From positions 128,079 through 192,078 of the forward strand of contig CAVOLD010000012.1 in assembly GCA_963696705.1 (NCBI GenBank): 64,000 nucleotides of DNA, given 5' to 3'. The position numbers and the translations under genes are program-made. The notes below the pieces were generated by a model that did not search any database, was not told the DNA's origin, and worked only from the letters and a program-made list of their open reading frames with translations. Shown piece after piece: positions 18,535 to 59,726 of the stretch; position 1 is the first letter of the stretch, and each line of letters begins with the position of its first letter. This DNA comes from an uncultured Acidobacteriota bacterium. GTDB lineage: Bacteria > Acidobacteriota > Terriglobia > Terriglobales > Acidobacteriaceae.

Positions 18535-18535
18535 G

Positions 18536-33018: not shown

Positions 33019-33088
33019 TGCAGGCTCACTTGAGATGGCTTTACGGGACAAAGCGTGGCCCGAACCCTCAGGGCATCGCCGCGTTACC

Positions 33089-34338: not shown

Positions 34339-34381
34339 GATTCGCTCCAGAGCCAGGTCCCTCTTCCGCCCTCTTCGCGGA

Positions 34382-34810: not shown

Positions 34811-34961
34811 CCGGGCTCGAAAAATACCGCTCCTGCTCCCGACTGGGAGCAAAACGGCTAGTACACATTCCCAAATCTAAGTTCATCGCGACGTGGAGTC
34901 TATCCGGTGCTACCTGTAGGGGAGATCGGAGTTTTCATTAGTAAGAAAGCAGGATCGGCGC

Positions 34962-36980
34962 CTAAGAGCTTTGTAGAAGGCGCTGGAGTTCAGCTTCGGC
35001 ATCGTGAACGAGATTGGCCAACCGGTTTGCGCCATAACGGCAAAGCGTCGCCAGATTCGTCTCGTACCAACAGCATTCCGCCATTCTCGGCGAGAGTCCG
35101 CAGAAGAATTTGAACTTTTGCATGGCCTCCGGCGATGCCAGTGTGGCCGCTACCAGCCGATGATTTCCATCGAGGATAGTCAACGGTTCGCTCTCGTTAA
35201 CGCCTATGAGAAGCACGGCGCCGGGTTGGGCATCCTGGCGCAACCAATCGCGTAACGATGTGATTTTCGACAGGAATGTTCTTACGGACACATCGCGACT
35301 GCGGTATGTGCGAATGCGTTCCGCAACTGTTGTGATCCCAAAATTGCCCCGAGCGAGCTTCCGCCACATGGCGCGCGGAAATACGCGAATCTGGGCCAGA
35401 TCTGCCGGCCGGATTTCCACTTCAAACCATTCCGTTCCCTTGGGCAGCTCTTTCCACAGCGGAAGATGTCGAATGAACAACAGGGCACGCCGCTTCGCAT
35501 TTTCCACATCGTCGTCGAGATGTGGTTGCATCACAAGTTCGCGCAGAGATTCCTTATATTCCTCGAAGGCGGAGTTTTCAAAGTCGCTCTTTAAGAACTC
35601 GGCAAGGACTTCATCTTCCGGGACGCGTCGAATTATCCTTATTCCACGAACGGTTGAACTGGACTGCACATTCTCAGACCCGATCAGCGTCTTCCACAGG
35701 AACGGCACTGCGAGCACGATGAGCAGAACCAACATCAGCACAAGCTGTATCCAGATAACTTCTTGCAGCGACGAATGGAAACGGCAAATGCCTGCAACAA
35801 GGACGGCACTGAAGGCCAACTGTACCCAGCTTGTGTTTGCGATCTTGTAGGACATTTCGTAAGCGATGATCACGACGCTAAGCGAATAGACGGCCGTCGT
35901 GGCCGCGTACAATGCCAGCAGATAGGGAAGGCCGTGTTGTCCAGAGATGGCGAACTGCGAGCCAAAGAGAGCAGTCCAAATCCACGCTGGGGACAGCCGC
36001 AGGCCGACGGCGATCACCGAACCGATCCCGAACACCAGCAACAACGAAGTCACCAGGACGCTGTGATCCTTCCTCTGCTCACTGCGAGTGCCCGCCATAA
36101 CTGGAAACATCGTATTTATGATTGCTGAAGAAAAGGCAAAAACCACTCGACCGACCAACGCCACTGCGGCGTACAACCCTGCCGATGTTGGAGGAAAGAA
36201 GTGCTTGACCAGTTCGATGTCACAGTTATTGATAAGCACTTGACCAGCAAAAAAGACGATCGCCTGCAGCGCTTCACGAAAGGCATCGGGCAGATGTAGT
36301 TCGCTTGGAACTCCAGGCGCAAGTTTGGGTGCAGAGGCAAGATAGGCGACCGCGACTCCAGCAGCGTTGGCCGCTATCACCCCGCGAACACCGAAGCCCA
36401 GCCAAATCGCGAGAAGAGATCCGCCGAGCCGTACCAGTCCTTCCAAAACCAGATTGCCAGCCAGACTATGGAAACCGTAAGCACCTTGAATGTAGCCACG
36501 GCGAGTTCCCAGGGGAACGTAGAAAGCGACGCCAACGGCGAGCAGGACAACCAGAATCGGACTGGGTAGATTCAGGTAGCCAGCAATTGCTTTCTGCAAC
36601 ATCAGCAACAAAAGCGCGACGATGATTCCGCACTCCCAGGCGCTTTTGTGGAATCCTCGATAGGCTGTACTTTTTCCCTCCAGGGAACTCTGCTGCGCGA
36701 TAACTTTGGCAGAGACGATTTGGAAGGACAGGGTAACCGCGGATATCAGAATGAGCAGGGTGTAGACGGCGGTCGCGTGGCCAAACGCGGTAGGACCGAG
36801 AAATCGTGCGACCGCAATGTTGTAGGCGAAATTGATTGCAGTCACGAGCCCCGAGCCCGTGAGCAGGATGAAACTTCCCGAAAGAACGCGGGCCTGTAGA
36901 GTCTTCGATTCCGGGCTCAGACGACTCACCGTGTTTTTGGGGCTCCAACCAACTAGGCCGTGAAAATTAATAGGAATCAA
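34962..36980 (-). CDS. MOP-superfamily (Wzx/PelG-like) polysaccharide transporter fused to a C-terminal soluble domain with a ParB/Srx-like DGNHR motif
   Basis: ~430 aa of TM helices (LLTGSGLVTAINFAYNIAVARFLGPTAFG... is typical of a flippase N-terminus). A ~235-aa hydrophilic domain follows, containing AVLLIGVNESEPLTILDGNHRLVAA (Asp codon at 35169..35171). Confidence 0.7.
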   Translation of the reverse strand: MIPINFHGLVGWSPKNTVSRLSPESKTLQARVLSGSFILLTGSGLVTAINFAYNIAVARFLGPTAFGHATAVYTLLILISAVTLSFQIVSAKVIAQQSSLEGKSTAYRGFHKSAWECGIIVALLLLMLQKAIAGYLNLPSPILVVLLAVGVAFYVPLGTRRGYIQGAYGFHSLAGNLVLEGLVRLGGSLLAIWLGFGVRGVIAANAAGVAVAYLASAPKLAPGVPSELHLPDAFREALQAIVFFAGQVLINNCDIELVKHFFPPTSAGLYAAVALVGRVVFAFSSAIINTMFPVMAGTRSEQRKDHSVLVTSLLLVFGIGSVIAVGLRLSPAWIWTALFGSQFAISGQHGLPYLLALYAATTAVYSLSVVIIAYEMSYKIANTSWVQLAFSAVLVAGICRFHSSLQEVIWIQLVLMLVLLIVLAVPFLWKTLIGSENVQSSSTVRGIRIIRRVPEDEVLAEFLKSDFENSAFEEYKESLRELVMQPHLDDDVENAKRRALLFIRHLPLWKELPKGTEWFEVEIRPADLAQIRVFPRAMWRKLARGNFGITTVAERIRTYRSRDVSVRTFLSKITSLRDWLRQDAQPGAVLLIGVNESEPLTILDGNHRLVAATLASPEAMQKFKFFCGLSPRMAECCWYETNLATLCRYGANRLANLVHDAEAELQRLLQSS

Positions 36981-37167
36981 TCTGGGCCTCGCAGGGCTCG
37001 GCGCTGGCTACTGCGAAACTCTGCGCTAGGGAATATTTTCCCTGGCAGCCCTTCTGATGCAGGAAGTAAAGGTCACGCTGCCCGCAAACTGACGAGTTAA
37101 TCAGGAGTTCTCCCTGATTTCGCGACAACCGCAAGCGGGTCCTCTGCCTCTAACGTTGAGCACTTCT

Positions 37168-38139
37168 ATGATCGATCGCTATCGGGTGATTTGTGCACTG
37201 GTTTTTGTCGTGCTGCTGCAGGGATGCACTCAGCCCGTCTTGCGCCAAACGCTCCGCGAGGGCGCTCCGCCTACTGAGGCTTCGCCGCAAATCTTGGCGG
37301 TTTACGAACCCTGGTTTGGTCATCCTCGCCACATCTCCGTCGGTTACTCCTCGCAAGATCCCGCCGTCATTCGCAAACAGATCGATGAAGCAAAGGCGCT
37401 GGGAATTTCTGGATTTGTGGTGGACTGGTACGGTGATCGCGAGCCTTTCATCGATCGCAGCTATGCTCTACTTCAAACGATCGCGGCCGAAAAGAACTTT
37501 CACGTGTCGATGATGTATGACGAGAGCGACCCGGACAACGGAGACGCAACCGACGACACTCTTACTGCCTTTGAGAAATTCGATGCAAGCTATCTTGCAT
37601 CGAACGCCCCCGGTCGCCAGGCTTATCTCACGTACAACGACCGGCCAGTAATCTTTATCTTTCCTAAGGGAGGACACACGGACTGGAACCGGGTGCGGGC
37701 GCTGACCGACAAATGGAACCCTCCACCGTTGCTGATCTACGAAGATCAGGCAACCAACTTCGCATCCGCCTTCGACGGCTTTTACGCATGGATCAACCCG
37801 GGGAGAAAAGGGTGGGCGGCGGATGGCAGCAACTGGGGTGAAGAATATCTTATCGATTTCTATCGCAAAATGGAGACCAAATATCCTGACAAGATCGCCG
37901 TGGGAGCCGCATGGGCAGGCTTCGATGACAGCAAAGCTTCCTGGGGACTTAACCGGCACATGGCGCAACGTTGCGGTGAAACCTTTTCCGACACGATGAA
38001 ATTGTGGCGGCAATACTACAGTGATCGTCCATTGCCCTTCTTGTTGATAGAAACCTGGAACGACTATGAAGAGGGGACGGCAATTGAACGCGGATTAGCC
38101 AAGTGCGGCACTGACTCGCGGCAACCCGCAGGGCAATAA
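37168..38139 (+). CDS. lipoprotein glycoside hydrolase, GH99/GH71-like TIM barrel
   Basis: Lipobox VVLLQGC. AVYEPWFG...GISGFVVDWYG...IETWNDYEEGTAIE resembles GH99 YYPWYG...SFNEWHEGTQIE. The family call is tentative. Confidence 0.55.
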   Translation: MIDRYRVICALVFVVLLQGCTQPVLRQTLREGAPPTEASPQILAVYEPWFGHPRHISVGYSSQDPAVIRKQIDEAKALGISGFVVDWYGDREPFIDRSYALLQTIAAEKNFHVSMMYDESDPDNGDATDDTLTAFEKFDASYLASNAPGRQAYLTYNDRPVIFIFPKGGHTDWNRVRALTDKWNPPPLLIYEDQATNFASAFDGFYAWINPGRKGWAADGSNWGEEYLIDFYRKMETKYPDKIAVGAAWAGFDDSKASWGLNRHMAQRCGETFSDTMKLWRQYYSDRPLPFLLIETWNDYEEGTAIERGLAKCGTDSRQPAGQ

Positions 38140-38142
38140 TCC

Positions 38143-39114
38143 CTAAGCGATCCGAAATACCCGTTCCCGATCTCCATCTTGGCGGCCGATGCCAACCTGA
38201 GCGGGAGACAACTGCGAAGCGTAGTACACCTTATTGATGATCGATAGCGGCCGGCTGCGAACCTCGTCGTATACCCGTCCGAGATACTCGCCAAGCACGC
38301 CCAGGCACAAAAGAACCAGAGTCCCCATCAAGAAAATCGCCGCCGTAATACCGTAGCCAAGTCCATTCGAAAAAATGCTCGAGACTGCAAGGATGGCGGC
38401 CAAGGACATTGAAAATCCCGCTAACACAAAACTCAACCGAAGAGGTTTGTAGCTGAAACTCGTGATTGCATCCATCGCGTACTTGATTCGGCTCAGGAAT
38501 GTCAGCTTACCCTCTCCACCTGCCCGGTCTTGCCGGTCGTAGAGAACGACCGCCGTGTTGTAACCCACCCACGCCCGCAGCCCGGGAAGATACCGGTTGC
38601 CTTCGCGCAAAGAGTTAATCGAATCGACTGCCTGTCGATCGAGCAGACCGAAAATTCCCGCGTTGAGCGGGATGGGAAAATCGGAGAGTGCTCCCAGCAC
38701 GCGATAGAAAAGCGGGAAGAGTTTGGCCAGAACTTTACGCCGTTCTTGCCGGCTTCTCCGTACGGCGGTCACAACTTGCGCTCCGCCGCGCCAGGCAGCC
38801 ACCAACTCCGGCAGAACTTCCGGCGGATCCTGGAAATCGCCGTCCATTAAAACAACCGCGTCTCCACGCGCAGTCTGGAGGCCAGCCGAGATCGCGCCCA
38901 TGTGTCCCCAGTTGCGCGAGAGATCCACAACGACAACATGCGCATCCTCGAGTTGCAACTCTCTCAACAGGTTGAGGGATGAGTCCCTGGAGCCGTCGTT
39001 TACATAGACCACTTCCCAGGTTTCGTCCACATCGTTCATGGCGTCGGCCACAGCGGCATGAAGCAAACGTACGAGTTCCTGTTCATTAAAAATAGGGACA
39101 ACGATCGAAATCAT
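38143..39114 (-). CDS. GT2 polyprenyl-phosphate glycosyltransferase (ArnC/GtrB/DPM1-like)
   Basis: MISIVVPIFNEQE...VVYVNDGSRDSS...DGDFQDPPE, plus two C-terminal TM helices ending GEYLGRVYDE, the family hallmark. Confidence 0.85.
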   Translation of the reverse strand: MISIVVPIFNEQELVRLLHAAVADAMNDVDETWEVVYVNDGSRDSSLNLLRELQLEDAHVVVVDLSRNWGHMGAISAGLQTARGDAVVLMDGDFQDPPEVLPELVAAWRGGAQVVTAVRRSRQERRKVLAKLFPLFYRVLGALSDFPIPLNAGIFGLLDRQAVDSINSLREGNRYLPGLRAWVGYNTAVVLYDRQDRAGGEGKLTFLSRIKYAMDAITSFSYKPLRLSFVLAGFSMSLAAILAVSSIFSNGLGYGITAAIFLMGTLVLLCLGVLGEYLGRVYDEVRSRPLSIINKVYYASQLSPAQVGIGRQDGDRERVFRIA

Positions 39115-39141
39115 GTGGGGCTCCTCAAACAATATTCAGCT

Positions 39142-39666
39142 TTATTCGGGTTCGGCCTGGAAGACACGTACCTTCCACCGCACCTCCGTAGGCGTCAGAA
39201 CAGCAACGTAGCGTGCGCGAACATGCTGCGTTGTCTGAACCTTTTCATGATCCATAATCTGCACGTCGTAGGTCACCGTATCGATCAACTGAACGGATAG
39301 GCCCTCCGGCGAGTAGAAAACCAACTGAAGATCGTGGGCACTATCTCGATAGCGTGTCTGGAGCCCCAACTTTTCCTGTTCACGCACAGTGTCCACGAGC
39401 TTCTCTTTGGCGGTACCCACGAAATCCGGATCCAAAAGATCTGCGCGATTCTCCTCGAGCGCACTACTCAAGCTGCGCCAGGCTTGAAGATAATCACGTA
39501 CCACTGCCTCCTCGGTCTGTTTTTCTAGCACGCGGGGCCCGACTGAATCCGTGGGCGCTACGTGCACCGCGGGCTGGTCGGAACCCTGGACAGAAAGCGC
39601 AATCAAGAGGGAGCAAGCCATGACAAGAGGTCTCACAGCCGACGGTGTTCGCCTGGCGTTTTTCAT
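39142..39666 (-). CDS. secreted hypothetical protein
   Basis: ATG 39666 forms an ATGA overlap with the upstream stop. Signal peptide (LVMACSLLIALSVQG). No motif recognised. Confidence 0.6.
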   Translation of the reverse strand: MKNARRTPSAVRPLVMACSLLIALSVQGSDQPAVHVAPTDSVGPRVLEKQTEEAVVRDYLQAWRSLSSALEENRADLLDPDFVGTAKEKLVDTVREQEKLGLQTRYRDSAHDLQLVFYSPEGLSVQLIDTVTYDVQIMDHEKVQTTQHVRARYVAVLTPTEVRWKVRVFQAEPE

Positions 39667-40544
39667 TGACCTCCTCCCCAATGAATTTCATTTCCCATCA
39701 CAACACCAGTTGCGACGGAAATCGTAGCTCCTTTATAAGCCGGCATTTCCGTGCGCGCGATCCCGCGTTTGATAGGAACATCCACGGTTGTTTCTTTGCC
39801 GTTGTAGGTTTCTGTGAACGTAACAACTGTTCCGTCCGGCACGGCATTGCCGCTGCAATCGCGCACCGGGTCTGTTTCGAGGGCAAGGCTCTGGCCTGAC
39901 GGGTGAGCATTCATCCTTAGACTGCAGGGATCGCCCGGGACCTGCGTGATCACGCGCGTATCTGAAGCGCTTCCAACTCGGGCTACAAATTGAGCCGCGC
40001 CTTCCTTGGATGCGGAATTCATTTTTGTCCACGCAACGCCATTGCGCGTGAGCACGGTCCGCGCCTGAGGAGCGCCAGCGACTCCGGAAAGCTGAAACGA
40101 TGCTTGCGTCGGTTGAAGAATCAGGTTCTGAAAAGTATCAAAGACATAAACAACACCACTGATGCCATCACGCAGATCAACAGGAACGCGGGAAGGTTTG
40201 GCGAGAAAACTCAACGTCGACGGCTGAGGCGCCGCAGTGACATCAAACGCACCATTTTCCGTGGACGAGCTCCCTACGACAAGAACGAGGTAGTGACCGG
40301 CATTGTGCAGATCGCCGGCAGCAAAGGATATGGTTTGTCCCAATTGCACTTCGCGCCGCAACACTTGCCCAAGGCCCACGATGTAGAGAGTCGCATTGCC
40401 GCCGCCAGTGGTTTGGATCGAGAATGCGGCGCCTGCTTCAACCGACTTCGGCAGTTGGAGGCTGCTGGTCTGAGTTGTAGCCAGCTGCGAACTTACAACT
40501 ATGATCAGCCCGCTGAGAAGTAACGATGTGAGTCGCGATTTCAT
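39663..40544 (-). CDS. secreted hypothetical protein, beta-rich (Ig-like?)
   Basis: Signal peptide MKSRLTSLLLSGLIIVVSSQLA. ATGA overlaps at both ends (40541-44 and 39663-66). Confidence 0.6.
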   Translation of the reverse strand: MKSRLTSLLLSGLIIVVSSQLATTQTSSLQLPKSVEAGAAFSIQTTGGGNATLYIVGLGQVLRREVQLGQTISFAAGDLHNAGHYLVLVVGSSSTENGAFDVTAAPQPSTLSFLAKPSRVPVDLRDGISGVVYVFDTFQNLILQPTQASFQLSGVAGAPQARTVLTRNGVAWTKMNSASKEGAAQFVARVGSASDTRVITQVPGDPCSLRMNAHPSGQSLALETDPVRDCSGNAVPDGTVVTFTETYNGKETTVDVPIKRGIARTEMPAYKGATISVATGVVMGNEIHWGGGQ

Positions 40545-41674
40545 TGGAATCGGTTCGAGCTGTACGTAGTGGCGACTGCCCGCTCGCTCTTGACTTTGCT
40601 CGCGATGTCTGGCGGAAGAGAAACACTAAACGAAATCGGCGTCTCAGGGAACAGAGCACGATCAACGTATCCGTCGGAGACCCAAACGAGTTGGCCGCTA
40701 TTGTCGTAGAAGGTTCCGAGGACGTGGACCACGTTGACGACTTGGCCGCTTTGATTAAGCAGATTTCCAGTCAACAATGGCTTGGGCCCTGAACTTAAGT
40801 GCTGATCTTGAATCTCGATTACCGGGTCCGCCGAAGCCGCGATCAGGCTTGACGACGGCTGCATGCGAATGCTGTCGACTTGGGATAATGCCATCTTGTG
40901 AAACTCAATAAGAAACGGAGTAACCTGCCTGGGCAGAAGAATGTGGGAAATCTTGTCGAAGCTATCTTCGGTCGCCAAGGCCGACCCATTTTTCGCCAAC
41001 AATGTTGCCTTGACTCTCACGAAGGCTGGGACCACGTCTTCATTTAGCAGTTCGCCTAATACGATCACTTCTCCAGCACGCTCCACCGGATGCATGTCCA
41101 CGATACGCACGTGCGGTGACTCCACATCTTGGGCTCCCCAGTCATCCTCCGCGCCGCGGTAGATCACGTCCCAACGCAGGTAATTCACAGGAATTACCTG
41201 CGGCGGGACGCGCGGTTCTTTCACGATCGGCCAAACCACTCCCCAGCGATCTCCCGTTTTTGTCACGCGCAGGTCGCGGGTATCCAAAAACATTCCAACT
41301 ACGGTCGACCAGCGCAAGTTGAGCCGCATTTGCGCATCATCTGCGGAAGCATGAAGCGGGCGTACGTCGAAGCTGTCGAGACTGGCGTGACTGCGAAGAC
41401 TGGGATAACTCCCCCTCAGGTCACGCACAAAGTCGGATTCCGCGAACTCGCTTTTGTTCGCGAGGTTCGAGTACGCCTTTTCCCAATCTTCGCGGCCGAT
41501 TTCATCGGCGAGGTTTTCGACTGCTGCCTGTGGCGACGAGGCAGGGCGTAGCAGATCGGCTCCTGATTCGACGCCAGCCATGGCCAGCGCCGATTGGACT
41601 GGCCAAAGAGTGCCGACGACGATGAGCGCAGCGGTTGCAATCGCAATCGAAGTAGCGAGGAGGCGCCCGTTCAT
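40541..41674 (-). CDS. membrane-anchored or secreted hypothetical protein
   Basis: Start trimmed to MNGRLLATSIAIATAALIVVGTLWP (ATG 41674; ATGA overlap with the stop of 41671..43455). Confidence 0.6.
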   Translation of the reverse strand: MNGRLLATSIAIATAALIVVGTLWPVQSALAMAGVESGADLLRPASSPQAAVENLADEIGREDWEKAYSNLANKSEFAESDFVRDLRGSYPSLRSHASLDSFDVRPLHASADDAQMRLNLRWSTVVGMFLDTRDLRVTKTGDRWGVVWPIVKEPRVPPQVIPVNYLRWDVIYRGAEDDWGAQDVESPHVRIVDMHPVERAGEVIVLGELLNEDVVPAFVRVKATLLAKNGSALATEDSFDKISHILLPRQVTPFLIEFHKMALSQVDSIRMQPSSSLIAASADPVIEIQDQHLSSGPKPLLTGNLLNQSGQVVNVVHVLGTFYDNSGQLVWVSDGYVDRALFPETPISFSVSLPPDIASKVKSERAVATTYSSNRFQ

Positions 41675-43455: not shown

Positions 43456-43573
43456 GTCATTCAGGGTTGCTCTCCTCCGCGCGTCGCTAAAACAACAAAA
43501 TGTTCGGTAGCCAACGGTTGAGGTCTTTTTCGAATCGAAGTGCGATGGATTCGACTAAACCGGTGGTGACAAT

Positions 43574-46500
43574 TTGACTTCCGCGTTGGGGCGCTTGAAG
43601 ACCGTGTTGATGTATGCGCAGATCGGTGCGCTTGCCTGTGTGGTCCAAGCGCAGACGTATAAGGTCGGCGATAGTTCTCCTCAAAAACCGCAAGACAATC
43701 CCGATCAAACATCGTCTGCCAACAAGCTCGGCTGGGGATCGAATATTCAAAACGCGCGCCTCGCCCGCGCGGCCGAACAAGCGTTGAAAAGCGGAAACTA
43801 CGCGGCCGCTGTTGGCTATGCGCAGCGCGCGGCGGAGGCTGCCCCGAACGATCCCCAGCTATGGTTCCTTTTGGGCTACGCCGCGCGATTGGACAGAAAG
43901 TTTCAGCTTGCTACCGATTCCTATGAGCGTGGTCTTCGCCTCAATCCATCTTCTCTCGATGGGATTTCAGGGCTGGCTCAGACCTACAGCAATATGGGTC
44001 GCGCGGATGAGGCCGAGCGCCTCTTGAAGCAGGTGCTTGCGTCCGACCCGAAGCGAGTCAATGATTTGCTGTTGTTAGGAGAACTGCTGATGCGCTCGGG
44101 AGATTACCCCGGCGCAATCGACTTGTTGGGGCGGGCGGAACGGGCCGAACCCGGCACGCGCTCAGAGTTACTGCTCGCGCTTTCGTATCAGCATTTGAAG
44201 CAGTTCGATCAAGCAAACCATTTTCTTGAGTTGGCCAAGCAGCACGCTCCGAACAATCCCGAGGTGCAGCGTTCGCTGGCAGGCTACTATCGAGAGACCG
44301 GGAACTATTCGGCGGCGATTGCTTCGCTGAAGTCGATCCACAATCCGAATCCAGATGTTAAAGCCGAGCTTGCGTACACCTATCAGCTCGATGGCAAACA
44401 GGATGAGGCCGCGAGGCTCTATGCGCAAGCGGCCAACGCTGCTCCCTCCGACTTGGGCTTACAGCTTTCTGCTGCGCAGGCCGAAGTCGCTGCCGGTTCC
44501 ATTGAACATGCTGCGCCGTTCCTGCAACGCGCGGCTGCGATCGATCCAGAACATTATCGGGTGCACGCTGTTCGTGGGGAAATTGCGAGACTGCAGGAAC
44601 ACAACGAAGAGGCAATTAGGGAATACAACGCCGCGCTGGTTCATTTGCCAGAGACTCCAGCCGAGGGACCTCTGTACGGAATTCAGTTGCACATGAATCT
44701 TGTCGAACTCTACAAGAGTTTGAACGATGAGAGCGCAGCTCAGCAGAATCTTGAGGTTGCCCAGAAACAGATCAGCGGGTTGGATGAACAAGGAGCCAGC
44801 CGAGCGCAATTTCTGCGCCTGCGAGCCTTAATCAAATTAAACACGGGCGATCTCGATGGCGCGGGAAATGACATTAAGGAGGCATTGACGATCAACTCGC
44901 AGGATCCGAACAGTCTGCAACTCGACGGAGACTTACTGGTAAAACTCGGTCGTCCTGAGGACGCCATCGCCGTTTATAAGAAGATACTCGCGGTCGACCC
45001 GGTGAACCGGTTCGCCCTTACCTCGCTGGGTTACGTTTCCCGCGAAGCCGGACACGACCAGGACGCCGAGAAATACTTCCAAAAGCTGGCGAACGCGTAT
45101 CCAACTTTGTATGTGCCGTATCTTGCGCTTGGAGATTTGTACGCGGCACACAAAGAGTTCGCGAAAGCTGACGCTTCGTACCGCAAGGGTTATGAACTGG
45201 CCCCGAATAACAGTTTGATTGTGGCTGGAGGCATGAACGCTGCCATCGAGACGCATCAAATGAATTTGGCGGCGGAGTGGTTGAGTCGCGCGACGCCCGA
45301 AATGCAACAGGAACCGCATGTCATGCGAGAGAAAGAAAGATACCTGAGCTTCAAGGGCGACTATGCGGCGTCCGCTGCGGTCGGTCGGGAAGTGATCAAG
45401 CAACTTCCCAAAGACCGGGACGTAGTTGTTTATCTGGGCTACGACTTGCTCAATCTCAAACAATACGATGAGTTACTGCAATTGACGTCGGAGTACGATC
45501 AGGTTCTGCCCAAAGAGCCGGATATTCCCCTGCTAGCAGGCTATGTGTACAAACAGAATGGAGATCTGGAGCAAGCGCAAAAAGATTTCAGCGAAGCCTT
45601 GCAGCGCGATCCCAACGTGGTTACGGCATATGTGAACCGCGGATACGTGTTGCATGACCTGCACGAACCGACTGCTGCCGCTGTGGATTTCGAAGCAGCC
45701 CTCAAGCTCGAACCTAAGAATGGCGAAGCTCATCTGGGGCTGGCCTACGCCAGTCTGGATATGCATCGCCCTCGAATCGCCTTGCGGCAGGTGCAACTCG
45801 CGGAAGAGCAGATGGGTGATTCGATGCCCATTCACCTGATTCGAGCCACCGCCTACGGGCAAAACGGATTGTTGATGAAGTCCGCTGCCGAATATCGCAC
45901 CGCCTTGAAATATTCGCCCAATGATGAGGCTCTTCATCTGGCGCTGGCCGATACGCTGTACAGTCTGCGGCAGTACCATGAGGCGATTAGCGAACTGCAA
46001 GCGGCACAGAAACTTTCCCCAGACGATCCTCTGATTTACGCACAGCTTGCAAGGTCGTACGCGCAACTTCACGATCGCGATCAAACCCTGCACTACGTGC
46101 AACTGGCAGAGCAGCACGCCGAATCAACGCCGACTTCCAAAGCGGACGAGAAGCGAGGAGAAAGCGCAGTATTCGTCTCCACCGGCGAGGCTTTGAGCGC
46201 GCTGGGAGATCAGAAAGCCGCCATGGAACGCTTCGAAAAAGCGCTCGACGCACCAGATAGCGATCGCGTAGCCGTGCGTCTGGCAATCGCCAAGCTCATG
46301 GCAACTGAGGACCATCCCAATGATGCTCAGCGGCAAATCGCATTGGCCCTGATGGAAGCACGTACAGGAGAGACGTTGCCGCCTACCGGCGAGCAGTTGA
46401 TGGAGGCAGCGGGTGTATTCCTCGATCTGCACGAGTATCAACTGGCAGAGACGTACCTCCAACGCGCTCAGGCAGCGGGCGCATCCGACGCATCTGTGCA

Positions 46501-47797
46501 CATTGGTTTGGCCAATACGTACTTGGCTCTAGGCGAGACGACGAAGGCCAACGCTGAATTGAATGCAGTCAGCAGTTCAGCCGACAGCGAACCGAGCTAT
46601 CAATATCTGCTGGCCAAAGCTGCCGTGCTTCGACAGCAGCACCAAAACACTCAGGCGCTTACCGCTTTTGCTCAAGCCGCAGACGCTGCGGGCGAAGACC
46701 AGATCGCGCAACAGGATTTGCTGGAAGCGGCGGCGAACGAGGGACTGAGGATCAACAGCAAATTGAGCGTCCTCTCAAATTTTTCCGTAGAGCCCATTTT
46801 TGAAGACACAACGGTTTACCCGTTGGACGCCAAGTTGGATGTCCCCAATCCCATACCAGGCCGCCAGGGACTGCTTCCGCCTCCGCGATCTTCGATTCAG
46901 ACGCAATGGACGGGCGCGTACCACCTGCACTTCGGCGGCTCGTTTCCTGACGCCAGCGGATTCTTTCAAGTGCGCAACGCACGCGGGGCGATTTCGTTGC
47001 CCAGCGCAGACGAGATCGTCAACCGCGATACGACCGACTACTCCTTCAACATCGGGCTCAACCCGACGCTTCATCTGGGCAATAACGTATTGAACTTCAA
47101 CACTGGTATTCAGGAAACGATTCGCAGAGACTCGCTGCAGCCGGTGGAAATGGATCAGAACCTGTTTCGACAATTTGTATACATGTCAACCAGTTCGTTC
47201 TTCAACATGGTTTCGGTTAATGCTTTTGGCATTCGCGAAGCTGGACCGTTTACTGAAAGCAACCTGAGTTCGCGCACTCTGGCGGGAGCGGTCGACTTCC
47301 GCGTCGGGCATCCTTGGGCTAAGACGGCTTTCGTGACCGGCTGGGGGGCTAGCGATGAGCAGTTTGTTCCGATTACGCGCGAGGTTTATTTCACCTCCGT
47401 CTACGCGGGCATTGAACGCAAAGTCTCCGAACGGCTTAGCTTCAGAGTTCTTGCGGAGGACTTGCGAGCGTGGCGCGTGGAGCAAAATGATTGGGCGATT
47501 TCCCAGGCGATTCGTCCAGCGGGAAGCGTCCAGTACTCCCCAACGCGCAACTGGAGCATCCAAGCCTCGGCGGCTTATTCGCGCAATATGGGCTTCCACG
47601 TTTATGACGCAGTGCAGAGCGGTTTTGCAGTGTCCTATGCCATGCCGTTCCATCACGAGTACAAGGACTCAACGGGGGAAGTCGAGCTGCAATATCCAAT
47701 TCGTTTCTCAGCCGGCATGCAGCAGCAGAATTTCTATAACTTTCCTGGGCCGCAGAGTCTGCAGATGAGGCCCTATGTGCAAATCAGTTTATTTTGA
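43574..47797 (+). CDS. giant TPR-repeat protein with C-terminal outer-membrane beta-barrel (PelB/BcsC/PgaA-like architecture)
   Basis: 1407 aa. Signal peptide, then ~1000 aa of TPR units (A..Y..AL...P....A...LA..Y). The last ~400 aa have alternating-hydrophobicity beta-strands and end in ...YVQISLF, an OMP-type C-terminal Phe. Confidence 0.75.
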   Translation: MTSALGRLKTVLMYAQIGALACVVQAQTYKVGDSSPQKPQDNPDQTSSANKLGWGSNIQNARLARAAEQALKSGNYAAAVGYAQRAAEAAPNDPQLWFLLGYAARLDRKFQLATDSYERGLRLNPSSLDGISGLAQTYSNMGRADEAERLLKQVLASDPKRVNDLLLLGELLMRSGDYPGAIDLLGRAERAEPGTRSELLLALSYQHLKQFDQANHFLELAKQHAPNNPEVQRSLAGYYRETGNYSAAIASLKSIHNPNPDVKAELAYTYQLDGKQDEAARLYAQAANAAPSDLGLQLSAAQAEVAAGSIEHAAPFLQRAAAIDPEHYRVHAVRGEIARLQEHNEEAIREYNAALVHLPETPAEGPLYGIQLHMNLVELYKSLNDESAAQQNLEVAQKQISGLDEQGASRAQFLRLRALIKLNTGDLDGAGNDIKEALTINSQDPNSLQLDGDLLVKLGRPEDAIAVYKKILAVDPVNRFALTSLGYVSREAGHDQDAEKYFQKLANAYPTLYVPYLALGDLYAAHKEFAKADASYRKGYELAPNNSLIVAGGMNAAIETHQMNLAAEWLSRATPEMQQEPHVMREKERYLSFKGDYAASAAVGREVIKQLPKDRDVVVYLGYDLLNLKQYDELLQLTSEYDQVLPKEPDIPLLAGYVYKQNGDLEQAQKDFSEALQRDPNVVTAYVNRGYVLHDLHEPTAAAVDFEAALKLEPKNGEAHLGLAYASLDMHRPRIALRQVQLAEEQMGDSMPIHLIRATAYGQNGLLMKSAAEYRTALKYSPNDEALHLALADTLYSLRQYHEAISELQAAQKLSPDDPLIYAQLARSYAQLHDRDQTLHYVQLAEQHAESTPTSKADEKRGESAVFVSTGEALSALGDQKAAMERFEKALDAPDSDRVAVRLAIAKLMATEDHPNDAQRQIALALMEARTGETLPPTGEQLMEAAGVFLDLHEYQLAETYLQRAQAAGASDASVHIGLANTYLALGETTKANAELNAVSSSADSEPSYQYLLAKAAVLRQQHQNTQALTAFAQAADAAGEDQIAQQDLLEAAANEGLRINSKLSVLSNFSVEPIFEDTTVYPLDAKLDVPNPIPGRQGLLPPPRSSIQTQWTGAYHLHFGGSFPDASGFFQVRNARGAISLPSADEIVNRDTTDYSFNIGLNPTLHLGNNVLNFNTGIQETIRRDSLQPVEMDQNLFRQFVYMSTSSFFNMVSVNAFGIREAGPFTESNLSSRTLAGAVDFRVGHPWAKTAFVTGWGASDEQFVPITREVYFTSVYAGIERKVSERLSFRVLAEDLRAWRVEQNDWAISQAIRPAGSVQYSPTRNWSIQASAAYSRNMGFHVYDAVQSGFAVSYAMPFHHEYKDSTGEVELQYPIRFSAGMQQQNFYNFPGPQSLQMRPYVQISLF

Positions 47798-47809
47798 GAT
47801 TGGGGTCCG

Positions 47810-49228
47810 ATGAAGATTTGTTTAGTTGCGACATTTCCTCCTAGCGGCCGGCAGTTGAACGAGTATGCGTTTTATATCGCGCGGGAACTAAAGCGCAATC
47901 CGCGCATCAGCCTGACCATTCTTGCCGACGAACTCACCGATTACGAGTTCGCCACCGACCAGAACGGAAACTCGCTCAAGGCCCACGAACAGCAGGAACT
48001 GCCTGGTTTCGACGTGATCCGCTGCTGGAAGTTCAACAGCCTGGCGACGCCAACCCGATTGTTAAGCGCAATCAATAGAGTGAAGCCCGATGTCGTATGG
48101 TTCAATCTGGTTTTTTCGAGCTTTGCGACTCCGGACTACCCGGTCGCCGCCTTCGCGGGATTGTGCGTCCCAGCCCTTACTCGAGCCCTCGGCTATTACA
48201 CCCATATCACGCTACACCACATCATCGAACACGTCGATTTTGCAAGTGCGGGAGTGCGCCAGGAAAAAATGTTTCGCCTCGGCAGTGACTTGGCCACCAG
48301 AACCTTGCTCAAGGCAAATTCAGTTTCAGTGCTGCTCTCTGGCTATCGGCGCACTCTCATCGAAAAGTACTCCGCTCAAAATGTTTTATTGGGTACGCAT
48401 GGGACATTCGCGCCATGCCCCAGCCCACCTGATTTTTCGCAACGGGGTAATCCCGAGCATCGCATTCTGGCAATTGGGCATTGGGGAACTTACAAGCGGC
48501 TGGAGACGTTGATGGACGCCTTCCCTGCGGTATTGAAGAAAGTCTCGAATGCCAAGCTGATTGTCGCCGGCGCGAATCATCACACCAGACCGGGATATTG
48601 GGAGTCGATTCGCGATTCGCAGAGCGTGGGCTCGCGGGTTGAGTTTCGCGGATATGTTCCCGAAGAAGATATTCCGGCCTTATTCCGCGCGGCGAGTGTG
48701 GTGGTGATGCCCTACGACTCGGCGACCGGATCGAGTGGTCCAGCGCACCAGGCGTGTGAGTACGGAGTTCCAATCGTCTGCGCCGATCTCGCCGATTTTC
48801 GTGACATGGCAGCGGATGAAGACATGGCGGTTAATTTCTATAAGCTCGGGGACGCGGCGGATCTCGCAGACCAACTGGTTTCGATCCTTCAGTCACCAGA
48901 GCAGCAGTGTCGAATGGCCGAGCAGAATTTCTCCGCAGCGATCCAGATGACGCTGCCCAGCGTGGTCCGCAATTACTTACGGTGGTTCGAACTCAACCGC
49001 TGCAAGAAAGAAGTTGGGTCTTTACCATTGTTTCCACATGAACGTTCTTTTTGGGAGCGTCTTGGGTTTCCTGGTCTGGGAGCTTTCTTCGCCGGATCGT
49101 TTCGCTCCGAGATCTTGTCTGAAAGCGGAAGCGGTAAGAATAACGATTCCGATCACCTGGGAAGCAGCCCGCAATCTGTCGAACTGGGGAATCCTGGTGG
49201 GTGGCAAAGATCGGAAACCGGCGACTGA
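47810..49228 (+). CDS. GT4-family glycosyltransferase
   Basis: MKICLVATFPPSGRQLNEY...; C-half ...VEFRGYVPEEDIPALFRAASVVVMPY....GSSGPAHQACEYGVPIVC (GT-B/GT4 E-x7-E region). 12-nt gap after the TPR-barrel gene. Confidence 0.8.
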   Translation: MKICLVATFPPSGRQLNEYAFYIARELKRNPRISLTILADELTDYEFATDQNGNSLKAHEQQELPGFDVIRCWKFNSLATPTRLLSAINRVKPDVVWFNLVFSSFATPDYPVAAFAGLCVPALTRALGYYTHITLHHIIEHVDFASAGVRQEKMFRLGSDLATRTLLKANSVSVLLSGYRRTLIEKYSAQNVLLGTHGTFAPCPSPPDFSQRGNPEHRILAIGHWGTYKRLETLMDAFPAVLKKVSNAKLIVAGANHHTRPGYWESIRDSQSVGSRVEFRGYVPEEDIPALFRAASVVVMPYDSATGSSGPAHQACEYGVPIVCADLADFRDMAADEDMAVNFYKLGDAADLADQLVSILQSPEQQCRMAEQNFSAAIQMTLPSVVRNYLRWFELNRCKKEVGSLPLFPHERSFWERLGFPGLGAFFAGSFRSEILSESGSGKNNDSDHLGSSPQSVELGNPGGWQRSETGD

Positions 49229-50289: not shown

Positions 50290-50407
50290 CGCATTTGCTG
50301 CACCCCTGCGTTCGGTGCCGAACAGACAAACTTCCACTTCGGCCACTAGCCTACGCCCACCTGTCCAATCATGTTGTAAGGCTTGCGCAAGCTTGCAAGG
50401 GAGCGGT

Positions 50408-59110: not shown

Positions 59111-59246
59111 TTGTGGCGTCACAGTTATTGCGAAGCAGTCGGGCAAAGATTCGAATGAAGGCAAAGACGACGTGGTGGGGGGAACAAGAACGTCGATATA
59201 CGCTGAAGAATTTGTTTTCTGTTTCCCTCGAGACTAGAAGCAATTT

Positions 59247-59657: not shown

Positions 59658-59726
59658 TTTCGACAATCGGGGTCTGTTGGCTGTGTTTTTGAGTTGGAAA
59701 CGTCACAATACTCGCGGAGGTGGGCA

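What the first reader, a model, noticed from the sequence alone, without database searches (positions are those of the whole stretch)
34962..49228. Candidate undescribed envelope-glycan assembly/export locus mixing Pel/Bcs-type and lipid-carrier-type parts
Within 14 kb the locus holds six components:
- a MOP flippase fusion;
- a GH99/71-like lipoprotein hydrolase;
- an ArnC/GtrB-like GT2 that should make a polyprenyl-P-sugar;
- a GT-C-like polytopic protein that should use that donor in the periplasm;
- three co-translated secreted unknowns;
- divergently, a 1407-aa TPR + beta-barrel protein followed by a GT4.

A TPR-porin plus GT4 plus MOP protein plus hydrolase echoes PelB/PelF/PelG/PelA. 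However, there is no PelD/E-like c-di-GMP receptor, no processive GT2 synthase and no Wza/Wzc/Wzy. The GT2/GT-C pair belongs to a different logic (Arn/Gtr/PMT-like). This combination does not match any of the canonical EPS pathways I know.
Basis: inference. Interest (0 to 1): 0.7.

Follow-up and report, generated by a model that had tools for sequence, protein, structure and literature searches.

The report
Conserved uncharacterised GT-C glycan assembly/export locus
This soil acidobacterium carries a 12-gene cluster, conserved across several phyla and never characterised, that most likely builds a sugar chain on a membrane lipid carrier, completes it outside the inner membrane and exports it through an outer-membrane pore.

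Summary

- **Synteny:** the eight core genes keep the same order and strands in 59 of 59 fully covered Terriglobales loci.
- **Barrel:** the C-terminus of the 1407-aa TPR protein is predicted as a 16-strand beta-barrel. Its best structural matches are AlgE, PgaA and BcsC.
- **Known pathways:** no canonical EPS pathway parts lie nearby.

The interpretation needs correcting. GT4 and the MOP transporter are not Pel-like additions. They belong with the GT-C protein in one gene set: GT-C, u447, u293, u179, GT4, MOP, STAS and a polyprenyl-P-sugar-synthase-type GT2. Most of this set recurs in Actinomycetota, Deinococcus megaplasmids and unassigned metagenome contigs (36-65% GC).

Gene fusions tie the parts together: GT-C::u447 in about 55 clusters, plus GT-C::GT4 and GT2::GT4. 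In the contexts I read, only the TPR-barrel, the GH99-like lipoprotein and a ParB/Srx-like domain fused to MOP look specific to Terriglobales.

The block also extends left to 33089, adding STAS, an S/T-rich membrane protein and a thymidylate-kinase-like P-loop protein.

Best model: GT2 and GT4 build a lipid-linked glycan, MOP flips it, the GT-C complex transfers or polymerises it, and the TPR-porin exports it. The product and chemistry are unknown. RefSeq calls the Deinococcus GT-C homologues "hypothetical protein".

The parts
33089..33811 (-). Thymidylate-kinase-like P-loop protein (240 aa). It is a conserved accessory gene whose role is unknown.
   Evidence: Pfam Thymidylate_kin scores 40.9 bits, with Walker A motif GIDGAGKST. 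It is present in 51 of 59 full loci. A TMK-like gene also sits in the distant P0368 context.
33841..34338 (-). u165: a small membrane protein with an N-terminal hydrophobic segment, an S/T/Q-rich low-complexity stretch predicted to lie outside the cytoplasm, and a C-terminal TM helix. It is a candidate glycosylation target or a STAS partner.
   Evidence: Sequence read and hydropathy. Present in 47 of 59 loci. It forms one continuous ORF with STAS in about 11 relatives, for example L011.
34382..34852 (-). STAS-domain protein, the probable regulator of the MOP transporter or of the pathway.
   Evidence: Pfam STAS 1.2e-12. STAS lies beside or near MOP in L083, L084, L088 and the P0363 and P0368 contexts. 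In L084 and L088 it comes with SpoIIE, HATPase and response-regulator partner-switching genes.
34962..36980 (-). MOP/PST (Wzx-like) transporter. Residues 440-672 (nt 34962-35663) form an extra cytoplasmic alpha/beta domain with invariant LDGNHRLVAA and CCWY motifs, possibly of ParB/Srx fold.
   Evidence: 21 of 31 orthologues hit Polysacc_synt. The MOP HMM hits L082-L084 at 1e-48 to 1e-65 over the transporter part only. The C-terminal domain has no Pfam or PDB sequence hit. Its AF2 model has pLDDT 87. Foldseek gives only weak (E>1) but repeated ParB, Spo0J, Noc, PadC and SerK matches.
37156..38139 (+). GH99-like predicted lipoprotein endo-glycosidase, the putative trimming or release enzyme.
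   Evidence: Profile match to BtGH99 at 5e-7 over residues 63-319. The motif ETWNDYEEGTAIE aligns with SFNEWHEGTQIE, and D303 and E306 are invariant in 31 orthologues. Present in 59 of 59 loci.
38143..39132 (-). GT2 of the polyprenyl-phosphate sugar synthase type (PgfS/CsbB/GtrB/ArnC-like). The likely start is the ATG at 39114.
   Evidence: Present in the block in 52 of 59 loci and absent in 7, including Acidipila rosea.
39142..39666 (-). u179: a secreted protein of about 174 aa from an orphan family.
   Evidence: Signal peptide, and an ATGA overlap with u293. No Pfam or PDB hit, even with a profile. Orthologue in L082 at 2e-15.
39663..40544 (-). u293: a secreted protein from an orphan family, with conserved Cys207 and Cys230.
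   Evidence: Orthologues in L082 (1e-13), L084 (3e-10) and L085 (1.5e-85).
40541..41674 (-). u447: really 377 aa, starting at M71. It has an N-terminal TM anchor and a periplasmic domain, and is a partner or subunit of the GT-C protein.
   Evidence: ATGA overlap with the GT-C stop codon. About 55 of about 63 distant GT-C representatives of at least 700 aa carry this domain fused to their C-terminus.
41671..43455 (-). GT-C-like polytopic glycosyltransferase (distant PF10131/PMT-clan relative) with a periplasmic domain at about residues 400-545. It is the most conserved gene of the block.
   Evidence: The Asp of the first periplasmic loop (YDAN, D52) is 93% conserved over 100 representatives of 50%-identity clusters. 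Median identity is 79% across the 59 full loci.
43456..43573 (.). 118-bp divergent intergenic region between the GT-C operon and the TPR-barrel/GT4 operon.
   Evidence: the gap is 118-743 bp (median 163) in the 59 loci. No Rfam hit.
43574..47797 (+). Signal peptide, about 1000 aa of TPR repeats, then a C-terminal 16-strand beta-barrel (from about nt 46760). This is the predicted outer-membrane glycan export porin with a periplasmic scaffold.
   Evidence: TPR Pfam hits. The AF2 barrel model has pTM 0.74 and pLDDT about 80 in the barrel. Foldseek top hits are AlgE at 4.7e-7, PgaA (4y25, TM 0.61) and BcsC. The protein ends in ...ISLF.
47810..49228 (+). GT4 cytoplasmic glycosyltransferase, 12 nt downstream of the TPR-barrel gene.
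   Evidence: Pfam Glyco_trans_1_4 at 1e-19. The same GT4 family sits next to the GT-C gene in L082, L083, L084 and L087 (1e-68 to 1e-91). It is fused to the GT-C protein in P0362 (1e-125) and to GT2 in Deinococcus L088 (6e-77).

Best explanation
The block is one pathway centred on the GT-C protein. It is not a mosaic of two systems.

Inferred mechanism:
1. On the cytoplasmic face, the PgfS/ArnC-type GT2 loads a sugar onto undecaprenyl phosphate.
2. The GT4 enzyme adds to this lipid-linked intermediate, or to a companion one.
3. The Wzx-like MOP protein flips the intermediate. STAS gates this step. In Terriglobales the fused ParB/Srx-like nucleotide-binding-type domain may also take part.
4. 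On the periplasmic face, the GT-C enzyme transfers or polymerises the glycan. It works as a complex with membrane-anchored u447 and secreted u293 and u179.
5. In Terriglobales the product is handed to the long TPR scaffold and leaves through its 16-strand outer-membrane barrel.
6. The GH99-like lipoprotein trims or releases chains.

Shown here: gene content, synteny, the fusions, the predicted barrel and the conserved catalytic-type residues. Inferred: every biochemical step, the identity of the sugars, and the nature of the acceptor (polymer or otherwise).
For: **Synteny.** All eight core genes keep canonical order and strand in 59 of 59 fully covered loci from different Terriglobales species. 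Identities fall as low as 39-66%, and the flanks differ between loci.

**Translational coupling.** GT-C, u447, u293 and u179 are joined by ATGA overlaps.

**Fusions.**
- GT-C::u447 in about 55 representative clusters.
- GT-C::GT4 in P0362.
- GT2::GT4 in Deinococcus aquaticus pDATS01.
- One continuous STAS-u165 ORF in about 11 Terriglobales loci.

**Recurrence outside Terriglobales.** Most of the gene set recurs in these places:
- L084 (Lapillicoccus-like Actinomycetota, 75% GC);
- L088 (Deinococcus);
- L082, L083, L086 and L087 (36-65% GC);
- the P0363 and P0368 contexts.

**Enzyme types.**
- The window GT2, and the shorter GT2s of the distant loci, best match polyprenyl-P-sugar synthases: ArnC, PgfS, PpgS, Dol-P-hexose transferase and AglJ.
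- The GT-C relatives hit PF10131 and PMT_2, and keep a first-loop Asp.
- PF10131 is placed in the GT-C/PMT clan (PMC7801869).
- A MOP-superfamily flippase combined with a lipid-sugar synthase and a GT-C enzyme has precedent (PMC11127046).

**Export and trimming.**
- The barrel is predicted, and its best structural matches are polysaccharide export porins.
- A glycoside hydrolase also accompanies the system elsewhere: a GH5-like gene in L086.
- A TPR protein with a beta-amphipathic C-terminus lies beside the L082 set.
Against: - There is no biochemical or genetic evidence for any step.
- GT-C fold membership rests on borderline profile hits, and I could not model this protein.
- The barrel has no sequence similarity to the BcsC, PgaA or PelB barrels. 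Foldseek TM-scores are modest (0.4-0.6), and generic porins also match.
- GT2 is missing from the block in 7 of 59 loci.
- GT4 is replaced by a hexapeptide-repeat protein in the P0363 and P0368 contexts.
- In the contexts I read, the TPR-barrel and the GH99-like protein were seen together only in Terriglobales. Their link to the GT-C module rests on conserved adjacency within a single order, plus one analogous case (L082).
- The ParB/Srx assignment is weak (Foldseek E>1).
- The identity of the lipid carrier, and whether it is mono- or diphosphate, is unknown.
Confidence: 0.55

Rival explanations
1. Two independent systems happen to sit side by side. One is a three-component periplasmic decoration system (GT2, MOP, GT-C) that modifies LPS or another glycan. 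The other is a Pel-like synthase-dependent EPS system (GT4 and TPR-porin, perhaps with the hydrolase). This is essentially the first reader's picture.
For: - The two gene groups are transcribed divergently.
- TPR-barrel proteins are otherwise known only from synthase-dependent systems (PelB, BcsC, PgaA, AlgK/E), and Foldseek recovers these.
- GT2 + flippase + GT-C is a complete known module in its own right.
Against: - The GT4 family of this locus is found next to the GT-C gene in loci that show no TPR-porin gene (L083, L084, L087, L088).
- GT4 is fused to the GT-C protein in P0362 and to GT2 in L088.
- No PelG, PelD, PelE or PelC, no PilZ or GGDEF receptor, and no inner-membrane synthase is present.
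- The arrangement is invariant in 59 of 59 loci while the flanks change.
Confidence: 0.12
2. It is a protein O-glycosylation system of the PMT/Pgf type. GT2 makes Und-P-sugar, and the GT-C enzyme glycosylates Ser/Thr-rich disordered regions of envelope proteins. Targets would include u165 and possibly the co-translated secreted proteins. The TPR-barrel would then handle the glycoproteins or be unrelated.
For: - The best NCBIfam match of GT2 is PgfS.
- GtrB/PgfS with a GT-C enzyme glycosylate extracytoplasmic S/T-rich IDRs in streptococci (PMC12041528).
- u165 has exactly such a region and is co-conserved.
- Some distant relatives hit PMT_2 or carry a Wzy_C (PglL/WaaL-type) domain.
Against: - The accompanying GT4, Wzx-like MOP, endo-glycosidase (GH99-like here, GH5-like in L086) and TPR-porin point to an oligo- or polysaccharide rather than single-sugar protein decoration.
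- My HMMs did not detect u165 in the distant loci.
Confidence: 0.12
3. It assembles a lipoglycan, following the mycobacterial PIM/LM/LAM logic. GT4 glycosylates a membrane glycolipid anchor in the cytoplasm and MOP flips it. The GT-C enzyme elongates it in the periplasm from the polyprenyl-P-sugar made by GT2. The endo-glycosidase then releases chains, which leave through the TPR-porin.
For: - The enzyme classes match PimA/B (GT4), Ppm1 (GT2) and PimE/MptA/B (GT-C) (own knowledge).
- The hydrolase is related to endo-alpha-mannanases.
- A faint GMPPB_C-like (mannose-1-P guanylyltransferase C-terminal) hit lies in the P0368 context.
- The system is present in Actinomycetota.
Against: - The GT2::GT4 fusion in Deinococcus fits two consecutive steps on one carrier better than two separate substrates.
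- No lipid-anchor-specific enzyme was recognised.
- Neither the sugar identity nor the anchor has been tested.
Confidence: 0.15

Closest known systems
Three-component periplasmic glycosylation systems (GtrA/B/C, ArnC/E/F/T, CsbB/YfhO, PgfS/PgfM, and the GT136 system of Citrobacter; PMC11127046)
   Same: - A GT2 of the polyprenyl-P-sugar synthase type.
- A membrane flippase, which can be from the MOP superfamily.
- A polytopic GT-C enzyme that acts outside the cytoplasm.
   Different: - A dedicated GT4 is an integral member here. It is fused to the GT-C protein or to GT2 in some lineages.
- The GT-C protein has a fixed set of three extra periplasmic partners (u447, u293, u179).
- A STAS regulator is conserved.
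- In Terriglobales an outer-membrane TPR-porin and a hydrolase are attached.
- The GT-C protein belongs to none of the characterised GT-C families.
TPR-beta-barrel exporters of synthase-dependent exopolysaccharide systems (PelB, BcsC, PgaA, AlgK/AlgE)
   Same: - One polypeptide with a signal peptide, a long TPR array and a C-terminal 16-strand barrel.
- AlgE, PgaA and BcsC are among the best structural matches.
- A hydrolase is encoded nearby.
   Different: - No sequence match to their barrel families.
- No inner-membrane processive synthase, no c-di-GMP receptor and no PelC-like lipoprotein were recognised.
- The partner machinery is a GT-C, MOP and GT4 set instead.
Pel system (PelA-G)
   Same: It also contains a GT4 enzyme, a MOP/PST-family membrane protein, a TPR-porin and a glycoside hydrolase.
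   Different: - No PelG profile hit in the window protein or in 31 orthologues.
- No PelC, PelD or PelE.
- The hydrolase is GH99-like.
- GT4 and MOP co-occur with the GT-C protein in lineages that show no TPR-porin.
Haloarchaeal Agl N-glycosylation on dolichyl monophosphate (AglJ, AglG/I/E, AglR, AglB/AglS). This comparison rests on my own knowledge.
   Same: - A GT2 primes a polyprenyl monophosphate.
- Soluble glycosyltransferases extend it.
- A Wzx-like MOP flippase moves it across the membrane.
- A GT-C enzyme transfers it outside.
- The GT2s here weakly match the AglJ and Dol-P-hexose transferase models.
   Different: - The host is bacterial.
- The GT-C protein is not an STT3/AglB homologue.
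- The acceptor is unknown.
- Export across an outer membrane is added.
Mycobacterial PIM/LM/LAM and arabinan assembly. This comparison rests on my own knowledge.
   Same: - Cytoplasmic GT4 steps.
- A polyprenyl-P-sugar donor made by a GT2.
- Periplasmic elongation by GT-C enzymes.
- An endo-mannanase that releases chains.
   Different: No detectable orthology to PimA/B, Ppm1, MptA/B or Emb. The accessory proteins differ, and a TPR-porin is present.

Membership tests
Pel exopolysaccharide system | PelG-type MOP protein (Pfam PF16933) | tested here: not met
   Neither the window protein nor any of 31 orthologues hits PelG. 21 of 31 hit the generic Polysacc_synt family instead.
Pel exopolysaccharide system | PelD/PelE c-di-GMP receptor module and PelC lipoprotein ring | tested here: not met
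   No GGDEF, GAF, PilZ or PelD domains in the block or its flanks. u179 is not a lipoprotein, because its Cys is not conserved.
Pel exopolysaccharide system | PelA-type hydrolase/deacetylase | tested here: not met
   The only hydrolase is GH99/GH71-like.
TPR-porin exporters (BcsC/PgaA/PelB class) | Signal peptide plus a long periplasmic TPR array | tested here: met
   27 TPR-type Pfam families hit across residues ~60-1040, with partial matches to the PgaA, BcsC, NfrA and PrsT models over the TPR regions.
TPR-porin exporters (BcsC/PgaA/PelB class) | C-terminal 16-18-strand outer-membrane beta-barrel | tested here: met
   The AF2 model on a 60-sequence alignment shows 16 strands, pTM 0.74, and pLDDT about 80 in the barrel. 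Foldseek returns AlgE at 4.7e-7, PgaA at TM 0.61 and BcsC. This is a prediction only.
TPR-porin exporters (BcsC/PgaA/PelB class) | Sequence membership in a known barrel family (for example BcsC_C) | tested here: not met
   No Pfam hit for residues 1001-1407, even at E<=10. Homologues were found only in Terriglobales.
TPR-porin exporters (BcsC/PgaA/PelB class) | Partner inner-membrane processive synthase | tested here: not met
   No BcsA, PgaC or Alg8-type GT2 is present. The only GT2 is of the ArnC/PgfS type with two C-terminal TM helices.
Three-component periplasmic glycosylation systems | GT2 polyprenyl-phosphate sugar synthase | tested here: met
   Full-length alignment to PgfS (232 bits) and ArnC (148 bits), both below their equivalog cut-offs, plus two C-terminal TM helices. 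Activity was not tested.
Three-component periplasmic glycosylation systems | GT-C-fold transferase with a catalytic acid in the first periplasmic loop | tested here: inconclusive
   - PF10131 scores 24.9 bits against a cut-off of 26.4.
- 8 of 12 close relatives and 9 of 56 distant relatives hit PF10131.
- 3 distant relatives hit PMT_2.
- The first-loop Asp is 93% conserved.
- No structure model was made, and there is no PDB sequence hit.
Three-component periplasmic glycosylation systems | Small GtrA/SMR-type or MATE-type flippase for the lipid-linked monosaccharide | tested here: inconclusive
   No GtrA or SMR gene is present. A PST-type MOP protein is present and conserved with the system. 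Its substrate is unknown.
Wzx/Wzy-dependent pathway | Initiating phosphoglycosyl transferase, Wzy polymerase, PCP (Wzc/Wzz) and OPX (Wza) | tested here: not met
   None was found in the block or among 20 neighbouring ORFs scanned in the window. Only the Wzx-like protein is present. Six distant GT-C relatives are fused to a Wzy_C domain.
Glycoside hydrolase family 99 | Family profile match and conserved catalytic acid pair in the N-E-W-H-E-G motif | tested here: met
   Pfam GH99 scores 33.9 bits against a cut-off of 33. The profile matches BtGH99 at 5e-7 over the whole domain, with N-D-Y-E-E-G aligned, and D303 and E306 are invariant. Which residues are catalytic in BtGH99 is from memory. Membership is borderline.
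ParB/Srx-fold nucleotide-binding domains | Fold match and a G-x-x-R-x-x-A-A type motif | tested here: inconclusive
   AF2 pLDDT is 87. The Foldseek hits to Spo0J, ParB-CDP, Noc, PadC and SerK all have E>1 and TM<0.35. The invariant LDGNHRLVAA motif resembles the ParB GERRxRAA motif, which I recall from memory. No Pfam or PDB sequence hit.

The most novel reading that the evidence does not exclude
This is a previously unrecognised, cross-phylum route for making envelope glycans.
- Repeat units are built on a polyprenyl (mono)phosphate by a GT2/GT4 pair.
- A STAS-gated Wzx-like protein flips them.
- A dedicated GT-C complex (GT-C, u447, u293, u179) polymerises them in the periplasm, taking the place of Wzy.
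- In diderm Terriglobales this machinery is plugged into a TPR-beta-barrel porin.

That would be the first link between a lipid-carrier/GT-C pathway and the export device thought to be exclusive to synthase-dependent systems.
Probability: 0.25. Interest if true: 0.85.

Novelty: new variant of a known kind. Interest (0 to 1): 0.68.

Why it matters
Terriglobales are among the most abundant soil bacteria. Their capsules and slimes matter for soil aggregation, survival of drying and carbon storage, yet the genes behind them are largely unknown.

**Spread and conservation.**
- This locus appears to be near-universal in the order. The genome scan found 541 matching stretches in a one-genome-per-species collection.
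- Its central enzyme is very strongly conserved, at 72-97% identity across genera.
- Most of the gene set also occurs in Actinomycetota and Deinococcus. There it comes with partner-switching regulators, which suggests a regulated envelope process.

**If the model holds.**
- It would add a new assembly logic to the three textbook polysaccharide pathways.
- It would show that TPR-porins are not restricted to synthase-dependent systems.
- It would give a function to at least four orphan protein families (u447, u293, u179 and the C-terminal domain of MOP) and to the PF10131-like GT-C group.

**Testability.** Culturable species carry the locus, namely Acidipila rosea and Acidobacterium sp. S8.

Tried and rejected
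- **Pel homology.** No PelG, PelD or other Pel-specific Pfam/NCBIfam hits for MOP, GT4 or any block gene. Rejected.
- **PDB sequence searches.** The GT-C protein, MOP, GT4, u447, u293, u179 and the MOP C-terminal domain gave nothing meaningful, alone or as profiles.
- **Pfam at E<=10.** Nothing for u165, u179, u293, u447, the MOP C-terminus or the barrel region.
- **u179 as a PelC-like lipoprotein.** Rejected, because the Cys is not conserved.
- **Riboswitch or other RNA element in the block.** No Rfam hit at E<=0.1. Promoter and terminator scans were no better than shuffled sequence.
- **Homology between the window barrel and the C-terminus of the L082 TPR protein.** hhalign probability 0.7%, so no detectable relation. 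Only a crude beta-amphipathicity index supports a barrel there.
- **Literature.** Searches for a prior description (Acidobacteria EPS clusters, PF10131/PTPS_related, TPR-porins in Acidobacteria) found only the note that PF10131 belongs to the GT-C/PMT clan with unknown function. The Actinoplanes gsf/wps clusters (PMC13390465) are a different system.
- **Taxonomy of the distant metagenome contigs.** Obtained only for L084, through a DapB cluster.
- A structure model of the GT-C protein or of u447, u293 and u179 (the two prediction jobs went to the barrel and the MOP C-terminal domain), and a search of a library of predicted cellular structures.

Full report
**1. What is in the window**

Nine ORFs fill 34962-49228.

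On the minus strand:
- a 672-aa membrane protein (34962-36980);
- a GT2 (38143-39132);
- three unknowns: u179, u293 and u447;
- a 594-aa polytopic protein (41671-43455).

On the plus strand:
- a 327-aa predicted lipoprotein (37156-38139);
- a 1407-aa TPR protein (43574-47797);
- a GT4 (47810-49228), 12 nt downstream of the TPR gene.

| Gene | Evidence |
|---|---|
| 672-aa protein | Polysacc_synt (MOP/PST), weak |
| Lipoprotein | GH99 at 33.9 bits (cut-off 33) and GH71 |
| GT2 | PgfS 232 bits and ArnC 148 bits, both full length; two C-terminal TM helices |
| 594-aa protein | PF10131, borderline |
| 1407-aa protein | dense TPR hits |
| GT4 | Glycos_transf_1 |

The four genes from the 594-aa protein to u179 are chained by ATGA stop/start overlaps, which I read directly in the sequence. 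This resets the start of u447 to M71 (377 aa) and of u179 to M6. u447, u293 and u179 each begin with a signal or anchor sequence.

Pfam scans of 20 neighbouring ORFs in the window found no initiating phosphoglycosyl transferase, Wzy, Wzc, Wza, processive synthase or c-di-GMP receptor.

**2.

*Synteny.*
- A scan of one genome per species, using an alignment of the 594-aa protein, gave 541 confirmed stretches.
- The best 80 were nearly all labelled Acidobacteriota/Terriglobales (Sulfotelmatobacter, Alloacidobacterium, Terracidiphilus, Acidipila rosea, Acidobacterium sp. S8). One MAG was labelled Acetobacteraceae.
- In all 59 loci with full 10-kb flanks, the order is GT4<-TPR-barrel<- ->GT-C-u447-u293-u179-(GH, opposite strand)-MOP, with every orientation preserved.
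- GT2 is present in 52 of these loci.
- The right flank (two Crp/Fnr genes and OmpA) is kept only in the five closest genomes.
- On the left, STAS, u165 and a thymidylate-kinase-like P-loop gene are kept in 47-51 of 59 loci. The block therefore really extends to 33089.

*Barrel.*
- Residues 1001-1407 have no Pfam hit.
- An AlphaFold2 model on 60 homologues gives 16 strands, pTM 0.74, and pLDDT about 80 in the barrel.
- Foldseek against the PDB ranks AlgE first (4.7e-7), with PgaA (TM 0.61 on the target) and BcsC also listed.
- Generic porins match too. The fold is supported, but family membership is not.

*Known pathways.* No known pathway accounts for the genes (section 5).

**3. The decisive result: the genes form one system that is much wider than Terriglobales**

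A full HMMER search of 1.84 billion cluster representatives, using the profile of the 594-aa protein, found 858 clusters at E<=1e-3 and 392 at E<=1e-30.

Most full-length distant relatives are 900-1160 aa long. I searched them with HMMs built from the Terriglobales orthologues.
- About 55 of about 63 long representatives carry a u447-like region fused to the C-terminus.
- One (P0362) carries the GT4 family of this locus instead (E 1e-125).
- Six others are fused to a Wzy_C domain, and one to an Exo_endo_phos domain.

Genomic contexts of nine distant relatives show the same partners.

| Locus or context | Origin | Gene order |
|---|---|---|
| L082 | 41% GC | GT2-GT-C::u447-u293-u179-GT4-MOP, with a 671-aa TPR protein nearby |
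| L083 | 53% GC | MOP-STAS...GT4-GT2 <-> GT-C::u447 |
| L084 | 75% GC; its DapB is >=90% identical to that of Lapillicoccus jejuensis (Actinomycetota) | GT4-MOP-GT2-STAS-SpoIIE-HATPase-STAS-RR-EEP-GT-C::u447-u293-like |
| L081 | 56% GC | GT-C::GT4-epimerase-GT2 |
| L085 | 55% GC | GT-C::u447-u293-u179-GT2 (contig end) |
| L086 | 36% GC | GT2 <-> GT-C::u447-401 aa-GH5-like |
| L087 | 65% GC | MOP-GT4-GT-C-393 aa |
| P0363, P0368 contexts | no DNA available | [P-loop (P0368)...MOP-STAS-hexapeptide protein] <-> [GT-C-~365-~286-~176 aa] |

A tblastn search of plasmids found four Deinococcus megaplasmids with relatives. In D. aquaticus pDATS01 the order is MOP-GT2::GT4 fusion-STAS-SpoIIE-STAS-RR-GT-C::u447. 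RefSeq annotates the MOP and GT-C homologues there as 'hypothetical protein'.

The short GT2s of these loci again best match polyprenyl-P-sugar synthases: ArnC, PgfS, PpgS, Dol-P-hexose transferase and AglJ.

Three kinds of evidence therefore agree: gene fusion, conserved neighbourhood across phyla, and translational coupling. GT-C, u447, u293, u179, GT4, MOP, STAS and GT2 act together.

In the contexts I read, the TPR-barrel, the GH99-like lipoprotein and the extra C-terminal domain of MOP were seen only in Terriglobales. Homologues of the barrel region were found only there too. L082 carries an analogous TPR protein, and L086 a different hydrolase.

**4. The individual parts**

*GT-C.*
- PF10131 is placed in the GT-C/PMT clan, with unknown function (PMC7801869).
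- The window protein scores just below the cut-off. 8 of 12 close relatives and 9 of 56 distant relatives hit PF10131, and 3 distant ones hit PMT_2.
- Over 100 representatives, the Asp of the first periplasmic loop (YDAN) is 93% conserved. Several His and Arg residues and a GGTT motif are conserved as well.
- The fusions fit the predicted topology. GT4 follows the last TM helix, on the cytoplasmic side. u447 follows an additional TM helix, on the periplasmic side.

*MOP.*
- 21 of 31 orthologues hit Polysacc_synt, and none hits PelG.
- Its C-terminal 233 aa carry invariant LDGNHRLVAA and CCWY motifs.
- This domain models confidently (pLDDT 87).
- Its only structural resemblance is a weak but repeated one to ParB/Srx-fold domains. 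This is a lead, not a finding.

*GH.* A profile of 31 orthologues matches the Bacteroides GH99 endo-alpha-mannosidase at 5e-7. The catalytic-motif region aligns, and D303 and E306 are invariant.

*u447, u293, u179.* None has a detectable relative in Pfam or the PDB.

*u165.* This is a small membrane protein with an S/T/Q-rich stretch predicted to lie outside the cytoplasm. It forms one ORF with STAS in about 11 relatives.

**5. How it most likely works**

Best-supported model (confidence about 0.55):
1. GT2 charges undecaprenyl phosphate with a sugar.
2. GT4 extends this intermediate. The GT2::GT4 fusion argues for consecutive steps.
3. The Wzx-like MOP protein flips it, under STAS control.
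4. The GT-C/u447/u293/u179 complex transfers or polymerises it on the periplasmic face.
5. In Terriglobales the TPR scaffold and barrel export the product, and the GH99-like lipoprotein trims it.

This logic needs no phosphoglycosyl transferase, Wzy, Wzc or Wza, and none is present. It resembles three known schemes:
- three-component periplasmic glycosylation, in which a MOP-superfamily flippase has precedent (PMC11127046);
- the haloarchaeal dolichyl-monophosphate Agl pathway (own knowledge);
- mycobacterial GT4/GT2/GT-C lipoglycan assembly (own knowledge).

Every biochemical step is inferred.

Rivals:
- Two unrelated neighbouring systems (0.12). The GT4 fusions, and GT4 co-occurring with the GT-C protein where no TPR-porin is seen, contradict this.
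- A PMT/Pgf-like protein O-glycosylation system that targets S/T-rich regions such as u165 (0.12). It is suggested by PMC12041528, but it explains the porin, the hydrolase and GT4 poorly.
- A lipoglycan on a glycolipid anchor (0.15).

**6. Comparison with known systems, and novelty**

It is not a Pel system. PelG, PelD, PelE, PelC and PelA were tested and not met. It is not a Wzx/Wzy or a synthase-dependent system either.

It shares the TPR-porin architecture with synthase-dependent exporters, and the GT2/flippase/GT-C core with three-component systems. It adds an obligatory GT4, three orphan periplasmic partners and a STAS regulator.

I found no description of it in the searchable literature.

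I rate it a new variant of known kinds, with interest 0.68. The components are familiar classes and the function is unproven. Against that, the conserved cross-phylum gene set, the dense network of fusions, and the pairing of a lipid-carrier/GT-C machine with a TPR-porin are unusual and directly testable.

Noticed in passing
window 34962-35663 (-): The MOP transporter carries a 233-aa cytoplasmic domain that I found only in Terriglobales. It has invariant LDGNHRLVAA and CCWY motifs and a confident AF2 model. Its only structural resemblance is weak, to ParB/Srx-fold nucleotide-binding domains. A ParB-like module on a flippase would be unusual.
   Followed up: partly
L011:18546-19580 and about 10 other loci; window 33841-34852 (-): STAS and the S/T/Q-rich membrane protein u165 form one continuous ORF in about 11 Terriglobales relatives, but are two genes in the window. 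u165 looks like the kind of Ser/Thr-rich disordered region outside the cytoplasm that GtrB/GT-C systems O-glycosylate in streptococci.
   Followed up: partly
P0478, P0481, P0484, P0489, P0506, P0508; P0445: Some distant relatives of the GT-C protein are fused to a Wzy_C (O-antigen ligase/polymerase-type) domain. One is fused to an Exo_endo_phos domain, and an EEP gene also sits immediately upstream of the GT-C gene in L084.
   Followed up: partly
L088 (Deinococcus aquaticus pDATS01, 341687-367297) and L084: In Deinococcus and in an actinobacterial contig, the system is embedded in a partner-switching module (STAS, SpoIIE phosphatase, HATPase kinase, response regulator). In Deinococcus it is also flanked by GGDEF proteins and present in two GT-C::u447 copies.
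   Followed up: partly
L082:13582-15597 (+): A 671-aa protein with a signal peptide and TPR repeats lies next to the same gene set in a 41%-GC metagenome contig. Its 290-aa C-terminus has strong beta-amphipathic periodicity, so it may be an independent TPR-porin partner. It shows no detectable homology to the window barrel.
   Followed up: partly
window 31522-33108 (-) and 24126-26876 (+): There are two PF04185 phosphoesterase (phospholipase C / acid phosphatase family) paralogues. The larger one has four InlB B-repeat-like domains. A ~34%-identical copy lies on the other side of the block, beyond GT4, in about 25 relatives.
   Followed up: no
window 13835-20725 (-): Three consecutive alpha-amylase-family genes (967, 694 and 729 aa, two of them with CBM48) look like a TreY/TreZ/TreX-type trehalose-from-glycogen set.
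   Followed up: no
window 49504-51157 (+): Two tandem Crp/Fnr-type regulator genes overlap by 23 nt immediately downstream of GT4. They are conserved at this position only in the five closest genomes.
   Followed up: no
L034, L045, L047, L055, L062, L063, L080 (Acidipila rosea): In 7 of 59 loci the PgfS-like GT2 is cleanly absent from between u179 and the GH gene. Either the lipid-sugar donor is made elsewhere in these genomes, or this step is dispensable.
   Followed up: partly
window 57665-60428 (+): A MEDS-domain histidine kinase is followed by a LuxR-type response regulator. A CHASE3 histidine kinase lies at 54980-56368 (-).
   Followed up: no
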